A stretch of 64,000 bases of DNA from Escherichia phage vB_EcoM_G17: the sequence record MK327931.1. The stretch is one strand, 5' to 3'. Each line of letters starts with the position of its first letter. Positions within the stretch are counted from its first letter, which is position 1. The translations under genes and the position numbers were made by a program. Below, in pieces: positions 1 to 7,553 of this stretch. The notes beneath the pieces are model-generated. The model was not told the origin of the DNA and ran no database searches. It was given only the letters and a program-made list of their open reading frames with translations.

Positions 1-242
1 GTCGAAATACCTATGGTCTATGTGGTGTTAATCAAACATCCGAAAATATACTAACTTTCACCGAAATGGTTCTTGATGCATTAGAAGGAAGACGAATTTC
101 AGGCTTCGTAAATGATAATTTCTATTCAATGATAATTGATGAAAATAACAATTTGTATATGTGTGGTTTGGCTGAACTTGGAAATGTTCCAGTCAATAGA
201 GTTCCAACAAGGGTTCCTGATTCACTTCTACCGTGGAAATAA
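1..242 (+). CDS. RCC1-like repeat protein, C-terminal fragment (5' end outside window)
   Basis: Frame open from window edge, ends ...YMCGLAELGNVPVNRVPTRVPDSLLPWK*; same repeat style as downstream paralogues; followed by the conserved cassette. Confidence 0.5.
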   Translation, partial: RNTYGLCGVNQTSENILTFTEMVLDALEGRRISGFVNDNFYSMIIDENNNLYMCGLAELGNVPVNRVPTRVPDSLLPWK

Positions 243-248
243 TATAAT

Positions 249-312
249 GCCAGTATCAAGTACTGGCATTTCTTTTTGATTAAATATAGTATAACAAATA
301 AAGGAGGGAATT
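249..312 (+). promoter_or_regulatory. Conserved intergenic cassette: terminator hairpin + T-tract + AT-rich promoter-like box + RBS
   Basis: gccagta-TCAAG-tactggc hairpin, atttctttttg, taaatatagtataa, aaggaggg 4 nt before ATG; near-identical copies at 1508, 2317 and 7084. Confidence 0.6.
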
Positions 313-1500
313 ATGTTACCTTTTGCAAGAATGATGAATTATGGGAATATTGCCCCAGTACCACTTCAAATTAAGAAAATAATCCCAACTGATTTAGATG
401 TTGTGGTTCTGTATACGGATGGTCAACTATATGCACGTGGGAATAATAGTTTTGGGAAATTCGGTAGAGGAAACAACACTGCATTAAAATCATGGACATT
501 AATTAGAGAAAACGTTAACGATTGCTGGCTTACACAAGGAACTTTATTAGTAAAAGACAATGACTCAAATTATTATTACTGTGGATATGGTAGTCATATT
601 GGTTTATCAACTAGTACTACTACGTTTTTAAGTTATAACCAATATATTCAAAATTTGTACACACAAAGTTCAAGTACTTCAATTAAACAGATGTATGGAG
701 GTACTACGTGGTTTACTTTCTTAATGGACAATAATACAATATGGAGTACAGGGTGGAACAGTGCTAGACAATTCGCCGATGGAACGGGAACTACTTATGA
801 AATAACCGATGGTTCATTTGTAAAAGCGGTCACACCTAATGTTGATATTGCACAAATACAGTCAACAAATAACTGTGTATTGTTGTTTGATAAACAAAAT
901 AATTTATATATTGGTGGTGTTACATCCGGTATAAGTTCCGCGACTACATGGACTTCATATAATCAATATACTTTATATCAACCAAATACAACATACACAA
1001 AAACGTTACAATACACAGGATGCTCAACTGGTGCAGTAAGTGCTTTAGTTGAAAATCCAAATACAGGAGCACGTCAGTTCCTTGTCGGTGGGTTAGCTAA
1101 TAATGGGGCATGGGGAAATAACACTACATCTAGCTCTGTTAATGGAGTTTTAGGAAATAACAGTACGACGTTACCACCCGGTACTTTGTATTCAATTCAT
1201 ACTGGATACCCACCACAATCTAGTATACTAATTACGAGTACTGGTGTATATGCAACTGGTTTAAATGCCAGTAGTTATGCTGGTTCATTGGGTATTGGTA
1301 CTAGTGCAACTGTTGGTAAGTTTACTGCATGTCCAATGCCTACACAAATAACATATTCTATGTATGATAAAATAAAAATATATAGAGGTTCATATCGTAC
1401 ATTTCTAACTGATATGAAAAATATATATTCAACCGGAACTTATGATGATGGTGGTCCTAGTACAACTAGATATGTACTAGATACACCCCGACAATTATAA
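313..1500 (+). CDS. RCC1-like repeat protein with conserved N-terminal leader MLPFARMMNYGNI
   Basis: 395 aa; repeats of type YARGNNSFGKFGRGNNT / GWNSARQFADGTG; S/T/N/G-rich; strong RBS. Confidence 0.85.
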   Translation: MLPFARMMNYGNIAPVPLQIKKIIPTDLDVVVLYTDGQLYARGNNSFGKFGRGNNTALKSWTLIRENVNDCWLTQGTLLVKDNDSNYYYCGYGSHIGLSTSTTTFLSYNQYIQNLYTQSSSTSIKQMYGGTTWFTFLMDNNTIWSTGWNSARQFADGTGTTYEITDGSFVKAVTPNVDIAQIQSTNNCVLLFDKQNNLYIGGVTSGISSATTWTSYNQYTLYQPNTTYTKTLQYTGCSTGAVSALVENPNTGARQFLVGGLANNGAWGNNTTSSSVNGVLGNNSTTLPPGTLYSIHTGYPPQSSILITSTGVYATGLNASSYAGSLGIGTSATVGKFTACPMPTQITYSMYDKIKIYRGSYRTFLTDMKNIYSTGTYDDGGPSTTRYVLDTPRQL

Positions 1501-1507
1501 TATAATA

Positions 1508-1572
1508 GCCAGTACTCAGTACTGGCTTTTCTTTTTGTATTAAATATATTATAATGAATAAAGGAGGGAATT
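1508..1572 (+). promoter_or_regulatory. Conserved intergenic cassette (copy 2)
   Basis: gccagtact-cag-tactggc hairpin + ttttctttttg + taaatatattataatg + aaggaggg. Confidence 0.6.
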
Positions 1573-4717: not shown

Positions 4718-5897
4718 ATGTTACCTTTTTCTAGAATGGTTAAGTACGGGAATATAGCACCTGTATATGAATCTAGTGTGATTAAAATGCAAGCACCATC
4801 AGCTTTTACCAACAACACATTGATGATTCTGTATAAGAACGGTGATTTGTGGGGTATTGGCGGTAACAATGCTGGTATATTCGGTCTTGGAAATACAACG
4901 ACACAGACCAAATGGGGTCGCTTAATGCAAAATGTGAAAAATTTTTGGTGCACAAGGAATGCTTCATATAGCTTAGTTCAGACCAATGATAATAAATTTT
5001 ATTATGCAGGTTGGAACCTTTGGACTGGTACATCTAGTGCAGTTCAAAGTACTACATTTGTTGATTGTACGTCTTATTTTTCAGGTTTTAATGTGGATAA
5101 TATCAAGGAGATATATCCAAATGTTCGTAATATGTTTTTACTAACAAATGATAGTGTTCTTTACGCAATAGGTGATAATTCGACCTATGAGTTGGGTAGT
5201 AGTTCATCTACACTTACATCATTTACACAGGTTAATATTAATGTTAAAAAGGTTAGTTCATTTTTCAATAGTCCGACTTGGATAATTAAAAATGATAATT
5301 CAGTATGGCGATGTGGTAAAACTAGTACTGGTACATTGTTAACTGGTTCTGCTACTGATACGTTGACGATTTGGACAAAGTATAGTTTTCCTACAGGACA
5401 GTACCCCGTTGATATAATTTCATATAACAATATGTTGGGTATAGTTCTTAATGTAGATAATACTTATCCGCTATATGGTGTAGGGTCACAAAATTCACGG
5501 ACAATTAGGAAATGGTGTTCTATCTAATACTAATAAGATATCTTTAACGCCACAAAGTACTTATTTACAATTAACTAATGTTTCCGATTTTGAATTTATA
5601 CAAACATATTCACAAAATCCTAGGGGATTATTATATAGAAATGGAAGTCGTATTTTTGGAACAGGGTATAATAATTATGGACAGCTTGGTAACAATTCAT
5701 CTAATAATGCTTCAATTTTCGTCCAAGCACAATTTCCAAATTCTGTAGTTTATGATCCGTCAACATCGTTGGTTGCTGCGAATGACAATGCATTATTTGC
5801 ATATGTGAATGGGAAATTATACTACACTGGTATGTCTCCAGTAGGGACAGTTGTTGGTACATGGACTTTAACTGAATACCAATTGCCACAAATTTAA
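4718..5897 (+). pseudogene. RCC1-like leader paralogue interrupted by a +1 frameshift in an A-run (about 5489-5493)
   Basis: Frame from 4718 stops at 5527; downstream frame (5484-5897) continues ...HGQLGNGVLSNTNK...FGTGYNNYGQLGNNSS...; combined length about 393 aa matches paralogues. Confidence 0.7.
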
Positions 5898-5907
5898 GGA
5901 GAAAATT

Positions 5908-7077
5908 ATGTTACCTTTTGGAAGAATGTTAAAGTACGGAAATATTAAACCAACTCTTCCTGAAATAAAGAAATTGGATGGTAGTCAATTACATGTCGGA
6001 TTACTTTATAGTACAGGGAATATGTACATGCGTGGTTCTGGTTCGAACTATAAATTAGGTACAGGGGATGCTAGTGATGTATTAGGTGGTTGGGTACATG
6101 TACCCTATGAAGTTGATGATTTTTGGGCGTGTGTATCCGGTACATTAATAAAGACTGTTGATAATAAATTATATTGTGCAGGTCTATACATGGGTGGATA
6201 TTTTGGGGCTAGTGGTTCATATGTTAACTGGACTGAAGTAACTTCATTATTTGTAGGTATTGACGTGTCGCAAATAAAGAATATAGAATTTACGTCAGCG
6301 GGTACTTCCGGTAGTACACTAATATTGATGTTAGATGGTCGTTTATATGGGTTCGGTATGAACAGTAGATCTGAGTTAGGTGTTAATAACAAAGTTGTAT
6401 CTCCCATTCTTATAGATACTGGGGTAAGTGCAATAGGAGCACATAAGTTAGGCGGTTCATCGTTCCATTATATAAAAGGCGGTAAGTACTACAGATGTGG
6501 AACATCGGTTGGTAGTAATATTGGAAGTTCTTCTTTAACTACTTTTACGGTATTGAGTATTCCTGATAACGTTATATCTATGCAAATATTATATGACAAC
6601 GTACAGTTATTATGTTTAGGAAGTTCTGGATATAGTATCTATATGGCTGGTTCTAATGATTATGGTGGAAGAGGTGTTGGCGGTTCTACGGTTTATACTA
6701 CATTCAGGAAAATAGATCTTACAGGATTTGGTGTTGTTCCCAGTGAAATACTATTTGAAAATGCTGGAAATGGTTATGTTAATATATCAACTGATAGTAC
6801 TGGAGTATATACATGTGGTGGTGGAGCGGGTGTTAACGGTTTAGGTAGACCAACTAATGTAATACCAAGTTCACAGTTGGGAGTAGTTCAGTTCAGTACT
6901 GGAGTAGAACAATCAAATATAAGTCGTGTGTATTCACAGAGTTCGAGTTCTGTTATATATTGTATAGTCAATAATGAATTGTACTGGGCTGGTAGTAATT
7001 CATATTTTACTGATCAAACCACAAATACTGGTACACAATTTTCATTTATTAAGATGAAGGATATGCCTTCTGCTTAG
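5908..7077 (+). CDS. RCC1-like repeat protein with leader MLPFGRMLKYGNI
   Basis: 389 aa; RBS aaggag; motifs YMRGSGSNYKLGTGDAS, YGFGMNSRSELGVNN. Confidence 0.85.
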   Translation: MLPFGRMLKYGNIKPTLPEIKKLDGSQLHVGLLYSTGNMYMRGSGSNYKLGTGDASDVLGGWVHVPYEVDDFWACVSGTLIKTVDNKLYCAGLYMGGYFGASGSYVNWTEVTSLFVGIDVSQIKNIEFTSAGTSGSTLILMLDGRLYGFGMNSRSELGVNNKVVSPILIDTGVSAIGAHKLGGSSFHYIKGGKYYRCGTSVGSNIGSSSLTTFTVLSIPDNVISMQILYDNVQLLCLGSSGYSIYMAGSNDYGGRGVGGSTVYTTFRKIDLTGFGVVPSEILFENAGNGYVNISTDSTGVYTCGGGAGVNGLGRPTNVIPSSQLGVVQFSTGVEQSNISRVYSQSSSSVIYCIVNNELYWAGSNSYFTDQTTNTGTQFSFIKMKDMPSA

Positions 7078-7083
7078 ATTTTA

Positions 7084-7148
7084 TGCCAGTGCCTTGTACT
7101 GGCATTTTTTGTCCTAAATATAATAACGATTTACATTTGGAGGATACA
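7084..7148 (+). promoter_or_regulatory. Conserved intergenic cassette (copy 4, diverged)
   Basis: tgccagt-N7-actggca hairpin + tttttt + taaatataataacg + ggagg. Confidence 0.5.
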
Positions 7149-7553
7149 ATGCTACCCTTTCGAAGAATTATCACATCATCAAAAAAGAACATACAACCTT
7201 CTGTTACAAAAATAGCTTCATCTGATAAGACAGTTTTTGCCCTTATGTCAGATGGTACGTTGTACAGTAGAGGTTCTCAATAGTTTGGGTTATTAATATT
7301 TTTCTAATCATATTATAACTTTATTAGGTGTTTACTCAACTGGTTATAACACAAGACAATTAGGTATAGGTACACAAACCGATGCGTCGGCCTATACCAA
7401 ATGTGTACTACCAATAGAGATGAATAACGTATATGTTACAGCAACTTTATACAGAACTTACTTAACCGATGGTATACAAATTTACAGTACTGGACAAAAT
7501 ATTACAGACGGTGGAGTTGCCAGTACTGTATTTGTCAAAGATTCACCATTTTA
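7149..7553 (+). pseudogene. Fragmented leader paralogue (MLPFRRI...), remnant
   Basis: 44-aa leader ORF stops at 7283; a degenerate cassette-like AT box (about 7300-7320) then another frame gives ...YSTGYNTRQLGIGTQTDAS...IYSTGQNITDGG...*. Confidence 0.55.

What the first reader, a model, noticed from the sequence alone, without database searches (positions are those of the whole stretch)
1..7553. Array of seven paralogues sharing a 13-residue N-terminal leader (MLPF-x-RM-x-KYGNI) fused to divergent bodies
Six consecutive plus-strand genes plus a remnant start with an almost invariant leader (MLPFARMMNYGNI, MLPFGRMIKYGNE, MLPFARMVKYGNI, MLPFGRMVKYGNI, MLPFSRMVKYGNI, MLPFGRMLKYGNI, MLPFRRI). 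After the leader the proteins diverge strongly. Five carry RCC1-like repeats (for example FGTGYNNYGQLGNNSS, HGQLGNGV), while one (1573..2310) has an unrelated glycine-rich body. A short conserved tag on unrelated cargo suggests a modular sorting or attachment signal rather than ordinary homology. The closest precedent I know is the short N-terminal capsid-targeting sequence shared by T4 internal proteins, whose locus in T4 lies beside denV; here denV is about 7 kb away. Alternatives are a virion-anchoring peptide for a diversified receptor-binding or adhesin family. I cannot tell these apart from sequence alone.
Basis: partly seen in the sequence, partly recalled or inferred. Interest (0 to 1): 0.85.

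Follow-up and report, generated by a model that had tools for sequence, protein, structure and literature searches.

The report
Shared virion-docking tag on adhesin-like proteins
A giant E. coli phage puts the same 13-residue N-terminal peptide on a dozen otherwise unrelated small binding proteins that end up in the virus particle, most likely as a common plug that attaches interchangeable adhesin heads to the virion.

Summary
The window is Escherichia phage Sharanji (Asteriusvirus). Six intact + strand genes and one decayed copy start with MLPF-x-RM-x-(K/N)-YGN. Five bodies are seven-bladed RCC1-like propellers and one is a glycine-rich protein. The array is larger than reported: 13 genes in the phage.

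The tag is not a propeller strand. AlphaFold gives low confidence for residues 1-10, and both body types start folding at about residue 20.

The tag is also not confined to this array. In related jumbo phages (121Q, CBB, GAP32, Serratia BF, uncultured relatives) I found 58 distinct tagged ORFs on at least seven body types: RCC1 and Kelch propellers, ConA/LamG lectin domains, glycine-rich domains and others.

Published virion proteomics detects these proteins: 9 of 11 tagged CBB proteins, 8 phAPEC6 array members and GAP32 gp001.

Variable tag positions follow the genome, not the cargo.

Best reading: a modular virion-incorporation peptide for a diversified adhesin repertoire. It works like the KP32 RBP2 docking peptide but is unrelated in sequence. 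The T4 capsid-targeting analogy is less likely, because no conserved Glu cleavage site exists and the cargo folds are adhesin-like. The acceptor, the location and the function are untested.

The parts
1..242 (+). C-terminal end of Sharanji gp111, a further tagged RCC1-like propeller whose start lies upstream of the window.
   Evidence: Window 1 corresponds to record position 47778, inside gp111. The fragment matches PHROG 4219 positions 753-802.
246..307 (+). Intergenic cassette: terminator-like hairpin (246-270) with a T-run, then an A/T-rich box and the AAGGAGG ribosome-binding site (280-307).
313..1500 (+). gp112: tag MLPFARMMNYGNI (313-351) followed by a seven-bladed RCC1-like propeller.
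   Evidence: AF2 pLDDT 86 and pTM 0.87, with the first strand at residue 20. UVR8 TM-score 0.75.
1507..1567 (+). Intergenic cassette: hairpin 1507-1527 plus the box and ribosome-binding site at 1540-1567.
1573..2310 (+). gp113: tag MLPFGRMIKYGNE (1573-1611) followed by a TNF-like plus glycine-rich domain, an adhesin-type body.
2316..2376 (+). Intergenic cassette: hairpin 2316-2338 plus the box and ribosome-binding site at 2349-2376.
2381..3556 (+). gp114: tag MLPFARMVKYGNI (2381-2419) followed by an RCC1-like propeller.
3565..4707 (+). gp115: tag MLPFGRMVKYGNI (3565-3603) followed by an RCC1-like propeller. It starts 8 nt after the gp114 stop codon.
4718..5527 (+). gp116: tag MLPFSRMVKYGNI (4718-4756) followed by a short (269 aa) RCC1-like propeller.
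   Evidence: The phAPEC6 orthologue gp007 was detected in virions.
5528..5907 (+). Frame-broken propeller remains between gp116 and gp117.
   Evidence: ORF fragments at 5578-5748 and 5769-5897 with propeller-like sequence.
5908..7077 (+). gp117: tag MLPFGRMLKYGNI (5908-5946) followed by an RCC1-like propeller.
   Evidence: The phAPEC6 orthologue gp010 was detected in virions.
7083..7554 (+). Decayed last member (gp118). It comprises a hairpin at 7083-7105, a degenerate tag MLPFRRI at 7149 written with synonymous CTA and CCC codons, a first-blade fragment running to 7283, and a C-terminal fragment at 7420-7554.
   Evidence: The C-terminal fragment matches intact homologue P0128.

Best explanation
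The 13-residue leader, together with a short and often proline-rich linker of about 6 residues, is a modular virion-incorporation (docking) peptide. Its logo is M-L-P-F-[PASG]-[RIQ]-[MLI]-h-x-Y-[GA]-N-[IVT].

**Proposed mechanism**
- Each gene of the array makes a small, independently folding ligand-binding head: a seven-bladed RCC1-like propeller, or in gp113 a TNF-like plus glycine-rich adhesin domain.
- The flexible N-terminal peptide plugs each head into one common acceptor site on the particle.
- That site is most probably on the external fibre or "hair" apparatus of these jumbo phages.
- One socket can therefore display a repertoire of interchangeable heads, and tandem duplication, divergence and decay of the cassettes diversify what the virion can bind.

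**Shown**
- The tag exists on unrelated folds.
- It is under peptide-level selection.
- It is predicted to lie outside the fold.
- Its carriers are virion proteins.
- Its variable positions track the genome.

**Inferred**
- The tag is the incorporation signal.
- The proteins are external.
- They act as adhesins.
For: 1. **Tag versus body.** Tag identity is 0.81 against body identity of 0.22 among the paralogues. The glycine-rich protein carries the same tag (0.78) with no body similarity.
2. **Breadth.** There are 58 distinct tagged ORFs across the 121Q, CBB, GAP32, BF and fHe-Yen9-04 lineages and uncultured jumbo phages. All are preceded by a Shine-Dalgarno sequence. They fall into nine BLAST clusters that include RCC1, Kelch, Laminin_G_3 and glycine-rich bodies.
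3. **Peptide-level selection.** Synonymous codons are mixed at the invariant residues: Pro3 CCT 25 / CCA 29, Tyr10 TAC 38 / TAT 20, Gly11 GGA 19 / GGG 26 / GGT 9. gp118 uses CTA and CCC.
4. **Separate from the fold.** AF2 gives pLDDT 58 for residues 1-10 of the propeller and below 50 for residues 1-8 of the glycine-rich protein. The first strand is at residue 20 in both. RCC1 matches in the PDB all start at profile position 15 or later.
5. **Virion association.**
   - phAPEC6 gp003, 005, 006, 007, 009, 010, 549 and 551.
   - GAP32 gp001.
   - 9 of 11 tagged CBB proteins, against 46 of about 543 others; Fisher p = 2e-8.
   - All six CBB structural proteins that are absent from GAP32 are tagged. 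The CBB authors regarded structural genes absent from GAP32 as the likely source of the tail whiskers.
6. **External, adhesin-type cargo.**
   - The Pam3 authors compare the Pam3 fibre to the S16 gp38 adhesin.
   - Divergent tagged propellers are the last gene of the tail-fibre module in phAPEC8 and CB7, and the CB7 protein is MS-confirmed.
7. **Tag follows the genome.** At variable tag positions, identity is 0.37 within a genome across different cargo, against 0.18 between genomes for the same cargo (permutation p < 0.0005). CBB's tagged genes lie at four dispersed loci with dissimilar upstream DNA.
8. **Working precedent.** A 29-residue N-terminal peptide is necessary for virion incorporation of KP32 RBP2, and it carried a foreign enzymatic domain into the virion.
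Against: - There is no direct evidence for the acceptor or for where the proteins sit in the particle.
- The phAPEC6 authors suggested the RCC1-like proteins could belong to the capsid inner body. Virion proteomics cannot separate inside from outside.
- Peptide counts for each protein are low, 1-5 in phAPEC6.
- The phiTE cryo-EM atlas did not model the propeller homologue.
- Hairs of about 119 nm cannot be built from 25-42 kDa globular heads alone, so a separate fibre protein is required and has not been identified.
- In 145-kb Seunaviruses the propeller and the glycine-rich protein do not share a tag. The shared tag is therefore a feature of the jumbo clade only.
- Within the Sharanji array the 5' cassettes are homogenised at the DNA level. 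Part of the local tag identity may therefore reflect gene conversion.
Confidence: 0.6

Rival explanations
1. The leader is a capsid-targeting sequence. As with the T4 internal proteins, it directs the proteins into the prohead core or inner body. They are then packaged with the DNA and possibly ejected into the host, as a diversified set of internal or anti-defence proteins.
For: - It is a short N-terminal tag on unrelated cargo, in a variable tandem locus where three of the six window genes have their own promoter-like box. This resembles the T4 IP locus (my own knowledge).
- The proteins are virion-associated.
- phAPEC6 has an inner body of unknown composition, and its authors proposed the RCC1-like proteins as candidates.
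- In CBB-type tags, positions 7-9 often read L-I-E or M-L-E, which resembles an (L/I)-x-E protease site.
Against: - Position 9 is not conserved as Glu across the 58 tags: K 21, E 10, Q 10, N 6 and others. All Asteriusvirus tags have K, N or R there.
- Several leaders have no Glu within 40 residues.
- The cargo are 25-75 kDa propellers, lectin domains and a domain that matches only external fibre proteins among phage structures.
- Homologues lie in the tail-fibre modules of 150-kb phages.
- There is no sequence similarity to the T4 CTS.
Confidence: 0.17
2. The peptide is recognised transiently by a phage assembly factor, chaperone or modifying enzyme. That step might be folding, oligomerisation or delivery to the assembly site. 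On this reading the peptide is a sorting signal but not the physical attachment point in the finished particle.
For: - The tag is flexible and lies outside the fold.
- It co-varies with the genome, which fits any single shared partner.
- Tail-fibre assembly proteins are encoded in the tail-fibre modules of related phages.
Against: - No candidate partner has been identified.
- Independently folding propellers and lectin domains generally need no dedicated chaperone.
- The experimentally characterised short N-terminal peptide of this type (KP32 RBP2) is itself the docking element.
Confidence: 0.1
3. This is ordinary paralogy with concerted evolution. The leader is simply the 5' end of a duplicated cassette (terminator, promoter, ribosome-binding site, first codons) kept uniform by gene conversion or by translation-initiation constraints. 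The glycine-rich gene would then be an accidental fusion.
For: - In the window the hairpin, the promoter-like box and the ribosome-binding site are repeated nearly identically upstream of three genes.
- The first four codons are identical in all intact copies.
Against: - The tag occurs on at least seven unrelated folds, at dispersed loci with dissimilar upstream DNA, in other genera.
- Synonymous codons are mixed at the invariant residues.
- The pairing of glycine-rich body and tag is shared by Asteriusvirus and Mimasvirus, and the CBB protein is a confirmed virion protein.
- gp115 and gp116 lack the upstream cassette but keep the tag.
Confidence: 0.04

Closest known systems
Conserved N-terminal docking peptide of secondary receptor-binding proteins (RBP2) in Klebsiella podophages KP32, K11 and KP34
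   Same: - It is a short N-terminal peptide (29 residues) that is conserved while the rest of the protein varies.
- It is dispensable for folding and activity but essential for incorporation into the virion.
- It can be transplanted onto foreign cargo.
- Here the tag is likewise short, N-terminal, outside the fold, and shared by different virion proteins.
   Different: - I saw no sequence similarity.
- The KP32 peptide serves one RBP2 per phage, and that protein is a tailspike depolymerase. It docks onto a T4 gp10-like branching domain of RBP1.
- Here up to 13 genes per genome carry the tag, on at least seven different small folds (propellers, lectin domains, a glycine-rich adhesin domain).
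- The acceptor is unknown.
- The phages are 350-kb myoviruses.
T4 capsid-targeting sequence (CTS) of internal proteins IPI, IPII, IPIII and Alt (my own knowledge)
   Same: - It is a tag of about 10 residues at the N-terminus of unrelated proteins.
- The genes are clustered in a variable locus.
- The proteins end up in the virion.
   Different: - The T4 CTS ends in Glu and is removed by the prohead protease. The tag here has no conserved Glu.
- T4 cargo are internal proteins. Here the cargo folds are those of external binding modules.
- There is no sequence similarity.
Glycine-rich (GRM) receptor-binding adhesins: Pam3 fibre gp24, S16/T2 gp38 and Bxb1 tail wing brush gp33
   Same: - In Pam3 this fold makes up the outward-pointing part of the fibre, and an N-terminal element provides attachment.
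   Different: - Pam3 gp24 attaches through a long N-terminal helical bundle and disulfide bonds. gp113 has only the 13-residue tag plus a linker.
- Sequence similarity is undetectable with a profile search of the PDB.
RCC1-like seven-bladed propellers (RCC1, UVR8, HERC2 RLD; bacterial cell-surface RCC1-family proteins)
   Same: - The fold and the repeat signature match.
   Different: - The database names "regulator of chromosome condensation" and "DNA condensation protein" are transferred from eukaryotic RCC1. Nothing here supports a DNA or Ran function.
- The phage proteins carry the N-terminal tag, which cellular homologues lack.

Membership tests
RCC1-like beta-propeller (Pfam PF00415, PF13540, PF25390) | Sequence matches to RCC1 repeat models | tested here: met
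   All five propeller ORFs hit PF25390 (E 1e-11 to 1e-31, below the curated whole-domain cut-off). gp112, gp114 and gp115 exceed the PF00415 or PF13540 cut-offs. Profile hits to HERC1, RPGR, UVR8 and RCC1 reach 3e-25.
RCC1-like beta-propeller (Pfam PF00415, PF13540, PF25390) | Seven-bladed propeller fold | tested here: met
   AF2 model with pTM 0.87. Foldseek TM-score 0.75 to UVR8 and 0.6 to RCC1.
RCC1-like beta-propeller (Pfam PF00415, PF13540, PF25390) | Chromatin or DNA condensation, or Ran-GEF activity (the function implied by the database names) | not testable with these tools
   No evidence either way. The annotation is a name transfer. The virion association and the tag point elsewhere.
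T4-type capsid-targeting sequence (internal proteins) | Short N-terminal tag shared by unrelated proteins of one phage | tested here: met
T4-type capsid-targeting sequence (internal proteins) | The tag ends in a prohead-protease site, (L/I)-x-E followed by cleavage | tested here: not met
   There is no conserved Glu. Position 9 reads K 21, E 10, Q 10, N 6 and others among 58 tags. Asteriusvirus tags read RM-x-(K/N/R)-YGN.
T4-type capsid-targeting sequence (internal proteins) | Proteins located inside the capsid and ejected with the DNA | not testable with these tools
   Virion proteomics does not resolve the location.
KP32-type RBP2 docking peptide | Conserved N-terminal peptide of 30 residues or fewer on otherwise divergent virion proteins | tested here: met
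   Tag identity 0.81 against body identity 0.22. The carriers are mass-spectrometry-confirmed virion proteins.
KP32-type RBP2 docking peptide | The peptide is structurally separable from the functional domain | tested here: met
   By prediction only. Residues 1-10 have low pLDDT and the first strand is at residue 20 in two unrelated bodies. PDB homology starts at position 15 or later.
KP32-type RBP2 docking peptide | Binds a T4 gp10-like branching domain of a primary RBP | not tested
   The acceptor is unknown and no multimer prediction tool was available.
KP32-type RBP2 docking peptide | Sequence homology to the KP32, K11 or KP34 peptide | not tested
   No alignment to the KP32gp38 sequence was run. 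The contact residues quoted in the paper (Leu2, Asp3, Phe5, Asn6) do not correspond to M-L-P-F-x-R-M.
KP32-type RBP2 docking peptide | Required for virion incorporation | not testable with these tools
   This needs tag deletion in the phage followed by virion mass spectrometry.
Glycine-rich (GRM / PF21722) fibre adhesin domain (gp113 only) | TNF-like plus glycine-rich lattice fold | tested here: met
   [not shown]
Glycine-rich (GRM / PF21722) fibre adhesin domain (gp113 only) | Located at the distal end of a tail fibre and binds a host receptor | not testable with these tools
   The only support is that homologue CBB_144 is a virion protein.

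The most novel reading that the evidence does not exclude
The hair-like fibres or whiskers of 121Q/CBB-type jumbo phages carry one common socket. A genome-encoded library of up to about 13 different monomeric binding heads (RCC1 and Kelch propellers, LamG lectin domains, glycine-rich adhesin domains) competes for that socket through the MLPF..YGN peptide.

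This would give mosaic virions with combinatorially diversified surfaces. It would also provide a 13-20-residue tag that can load arbitrary cargo onto a giant phage particle.
Probability: 0.35. Interest if true: 0.85.

Novelty: new variant of a known kind. Interest (0 to 1): 0.7.

Why it matters
- **Reassigning a large group of genes.** If the tag is a docking peptide, it explains a dozen \"DNA condensation\" or hypothetical genes per genome in a widespread group of giant enterobacterial phages. They would be re-read as a diversified adhesin repertoire.
- **An open question becomes testable.** Nobody knows what the hairs or whiskers of CBB, 121Q and phAPEC6 are made of or what they do. All six CBB structural proteins that are absent from the reportedly hairless GAP32 carry the tag.
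- **A possible engineering handle.** The tag could be a very short handle for displaying foreign proteins on jumbo phages or retargeting them. The KP32 docking peptide has already been used this way.
- **Annotation fixes.** The glycine-rich ORF is missed or mis-framed in phAPEC6.

Tried and rejected
- **Leader as a propeller strand (velcro closure).** Rejected. AF2 places residues 1-19 outside the blades, and the same tag sits on non-propeller folds.
- **Conservation at the RNA or DNA level only.** Rejected by synonymous codon mixing and by dissimilar upstream DNA at the CBB loci.
- **A 977-bp difference between the window and the Sharanji record.** This was an artefact of how paralogous BLAST pieces were joined. 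The window is 100% identical to the record.
- **Leader-only profile search of 1.84 billion proteins.** This failed by design. The profile built from alignment A4 had 382 positions and returned generic RCC1 proteins. The DNA-pattern scans of IMG/VR did the job instead.
- **Strict leader pattern.** It found only 121Q in IMG/VR. The looser pattern was needed.
- **Shared tag outside the jumbo clade.** Tested in two Seunaviruses and not found.
- **A solved virion structure containing a sequence relative.** None was found. The phiTE cryo-EM paper does not model the propeller, and its supplements are not held.
- **Sigma-70 promoter scan.** Not above chance.
- **Literature searches for a prior description of the tag.** Nothing found. 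Two apparent RCC1 hits were locus tags or strain names.
- **The Sharanji paper.** It does not discuss the array and reports no virion proteomics or expression data for these genes.

Full report
**Identity of the window.** The first 8 kb are 100% identical to Escherichia phage Sharanji (OR545507, genus Asteriusvirus, the 121Q/PBECO4/phAPEC6 group of about 350-kb myoviruses). Window position 1 corresponds to record position 47778. An apparent 977-bp difference was an artefact of joining paralogous BLAST pieces.

- Six intact + strand genes start with MLPF-x-RM-x-(K/N)-YGN: 313-1500, 1573-2310, 2381-3556, 3565-4707, 4718-5527 and 5908-7077.
- A seventh, decayed copy has MLPFRRI at 7149 and a detached C-terminal fragment at 7420-7554.
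- MLPF occurs nowhere else in the six-frame translation of the 64 kb.
- Five bodies are RCC1-like (Pfam PF25390, PF00415, PF13540; PHROG 4219). The 1573-2310 body belongs to PHROG 4474, and its relatives carry PF21722, a glycine-rich domain.
Sharanji has 13 such genes, gp106-gp118, and window 1-242 is the end of gp111.
- Among 11 propeller paralogues the 13-residue tag is 81% identical on average and the rest of the protein 22%.
- The glycine-rich protein shares the tag (78%) but has no significant body similarity.

**Gene organisation.**
- Three of the window's genes are preceded by a nearly identical cassette: a GC-rich hairpin with a T-run (246-270, 1507-1527, 2316-2338, and a fourth at 7083-7105), then an A/T-rich box and AAGGAGG.
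- gp115 and gp116 follow the previous stop codon by 8-10 nt and lack the cassette, yet keep the tag.
- Sigma-70-type promoter matches are not above chance.

**The tag is selected as a peptide.** In 58 distinct tagged ORFs the invariant residues are written with mixed synonymous codons: Pro3 CCT 25 / CCA 29 / CCC 2 / CCG 2, Tyr10 TAC 38 / TAT 20, Gly11 GGA 19 / GGG 26 / GGT 9. The decayed gp118 still spells M-L-P-F with CTA and CCC.

**The tag is not part of the fold.**
- The AlphaFold model of gp112 is confident (pLDDT 86, pTM 0.87). It is a seven-bladed RCC1-like propeller (TM-score 0.75 to UVR8).
- Residues 1-10 have pLDDT 58 and form at most a short helix. The first blade strand starts at residue 20.
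- The glycine-rich protein gives pLDDT 92, with residues 1-8 below 50 and again the first strand at residue 20.
- Profile matches of the propeller family to RCC1 domains in the PDB all begin at position 15 or later.
The leader is not simply the first propeller strand.

**The tag is a clade-wide module on many cargo types.**
- A strict DNA pattern for the leader found only 121Q in IMG/VR.
- A looser pattern (ATG YTN CCN TTY N15 TAY GGN AAY) found about 50 ORF starts preceded by a Shine-Dalgarno sequence. They lie in jumbo phages of 354-378 kb: 121Q, CBB, GAP32, Serratia BF, Yersinia fHe-Yen9-04 and four uncultured genomes.
- With YAN variants and the Sharanji copies the set reaches 58 distinct ORFs. 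The logo is M-L-P-F-[PASG]-[RIQ]-[MLI]-h-x-Y-[GA]-N-[IVT]-h, often followed by a proline-rich linker.
- After removing the first 20 residues the bodies fall into nine BLAST clusters. These comprise:
  - RCC1 propellers of 366-396 aa, and 667-676 aa forms with an added Kelch-like part;
  - Kelch propellers;
  - Laminin_G_3 (ConA-like lectin) domains;
  - glycine-rich domains;
  - members of PHROG 6011 (\"virion structural protein\");
  - a 168-aa family (PHROG 6409).
- Bacterial RCC1-family proteins, which share the fold, have signal peptides or other N-termini and never the tag.

**Older, divergent versions exist.**
- In roughly 150-kb myoviruses the last gene of the baseplate and tail-fibre module is an RCC1-like protein with a recognisably related N-terminus.
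- CB7_37 reads MIPFAIIGFVGGVTPVPYAIKK and is MS/MS-confirmed as structural.
- phAPEC8 gp086 reads MFPIPIFTIMTSTGVVPLPAGIVKK, is annotated \"tail protein\", and is 891 aa with extra C-terminal domains.
- The glycine-rich family elsewhere mostly starts with a different short motif, M[LI]E[LMI]L.
- In two Seunaviruses that encode both bodies, the propeller (MYPIPALYLML...) and the glycine-rich protein (MLEILTIG... or MFEMMLAT...) do not share a tag.
- The glycine-rich protein therefore carries the propeller-type tag only in the jumbo lineage. The combination is old there: CBB_144 in genus Mimasvirus starts MLPFSPLIVYGNKIAP.

**The carriers are virion proteins.**
- In phAPEC6, ESI-MS/MS of purified virions detected gp003, 005, 006, 007, 009, 010, 549 and 551 (PMC7247149, Table 1). 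The first six map onto tagged propellers of the array.
- The glycine-rich ORF is mis-annotated in that record, so its absence from the table is uninformative.
- In CBB I identified eleven tagged proteins: CBB_144, 247, 536, 537 and 548-554. Nine of them are in the published virion proteome: CBB_144, 247, 536, 537, 548, 549, 551, 552 and 553 (PMC5259590, Table 4).
- That is 9 of 11 against 46 of about 543 other ORFs (Fisher p = 2e-8). The tagged set may be incomplete.
- All six CBB structural proteins that lack GAP32 homologues carry the tag. The CBB authors reasoned that structural genes absent from GAP32 should account for the tail whiskers.
- GAP32 gp001, a tagged propeller, was also found in virions.

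**Inside or outside?** There is no direct evidence. Three indirect lines favour an external location.
2. The other cargo are classic ligand-binding modules: lectin-type jelly rolls and propellers.
3. The divergent homologues sit in tail-fibre modules.

Against this, the phAPEC6 authors proposed the RCC1-like proteins for the capsid inner body. The phiTE cryo-EM atlas did not locate its propeller homologue.

**Co-variation.** At the variable tag positions (5-9, 13, 14), tags are more alike within a genome across unrelated cargo (0.37) than between genomes within one cargo family (0.18; permutation p < 0.0005). In CBB the tagged genes lie at four distant loci with dissimilar upstream DNA, so local gene conversion does not explain the pattern there. 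It is what one expects if all tags of a phage fit one shared partner.

**Mechanism proposed.** The tag plus linker is a flexible docking peptide. It inserts each small binding head into a common acceptor on the particle, probably the fibre or hair apparatus. Duplication, divergence and decay of cassettes then vary what the virion can bind.
- Decay is visible in the window: the short gp116, the broken remains at 5528-5907, and the dead gp118.
- The locus is hypervariable among Asteriusviruses. Other members cover only 18-69% of the 8-kb query, at 86-98% identity over the parts that match.
- I put about 0.8 on \"virion-incorporation signal\" and about 0.6 on the full statement that includes external display.
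- A T4-like capsid-targeting role remains possible (0.17). It fits less well because no conserved Glu or protease site exists: position 9 reads K 21, E 10, Q 10, N 6.

**Comparison with what is known.** It works most like the 29-residue conserved peptide of KP32-type RBP2. That peptide is dispensable for folding, essential for incorporation, and transplantable (PMC13352976). It is not a member of that family.
- The sequences show no evident similarity.
- The cargo are not tailspikes.
- The acceptor is unknown.
- One genome uses the tag on up to 13 proteins of several folds.

I found no paper describing this tag. The database names \"regulator of chromosome condensation\" and \"DNA condensation protein\" are name transfers with no support here.

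**Verdict.** This is a real and statistically strong feature. The function is inferred, not shown.

Noticed in passing
window 8239-11019 (- strand): Eight tandem small ORFs (104-141 aa, Sharanji gp120-gp127) look like multi-pass membrane paralogues with basic C-terminal tails. CBB has a similar run of "putative membrane protein" genes (CBB_539-547) directly next to its tagged cluster CBB_548-554.
   Followed up: no
window 4718-5907: gp116 is a short (269 aa) propeller that is conserved at the same length in 121Q and phAPEC6. Its phAPEC6 orthologue gp007 was detected in virions. It is followed by frame-broken propeller remains at 5528-5907, so a truncated blade set appears to be tolerated.
   Followed up: partly
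L006 (phAPEC6 MK817115) 7325-8056: The glycine-rich tagged ORF is not annotated in phAPEC6. A 100-aa wrong-frame ORF (gp004, 7716-8018) is annotated in its place. The published virion proteome therefore could not have reported the real protein.
   Followed up: yes
P0005-P0034, L053 2453-3190, L055 2498-3340: Outside the jumbo clade, glycine-rich homologues start with their own short conserved motif, M[LI]E[LMI]L..., followed by a variable linker and then the GQ..FT..G...W.VP.GVTS core. This may be a second class of short docking peptide.
   Followed up: partly
L007 8001-8765 (CBB_144); L051 1602-2336 (CBB_247): Two tagged CBB genes are single-gene insertions between conserved replication and nucleotide-metabolism genes: nrdD/nrdG, and the recombination endonuclease and endoVII genes. 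GAP32 lacks them. They behave like mobile cassettes.
   Followed up: partly
window 1722-2269, both strands: Long overlapping ORFs inside the glycine-rich gene (1722-1976 -, 1897-2124 -, 1961-2269 +) are by-products of the GGN-rich coding sequence, not genes.
   Followed up: no
L016 1903, L019 8416, L048 140 (uncultured jumbo phages): These are tagged proteins of 667-676 aa. In the one I read in full (L016), an RCC1-like N-terminal part is followed by a Kelch-like C-terminal part, which is probably why BLAST clustering joins the CBB Kelch proteins to the RCC1 cluster.
   Followed up: no
window 11924-13042 (- strand): A 372-aa ORF between the membrane-protein array and denV. I ran no family search on it.
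   Followed up: no
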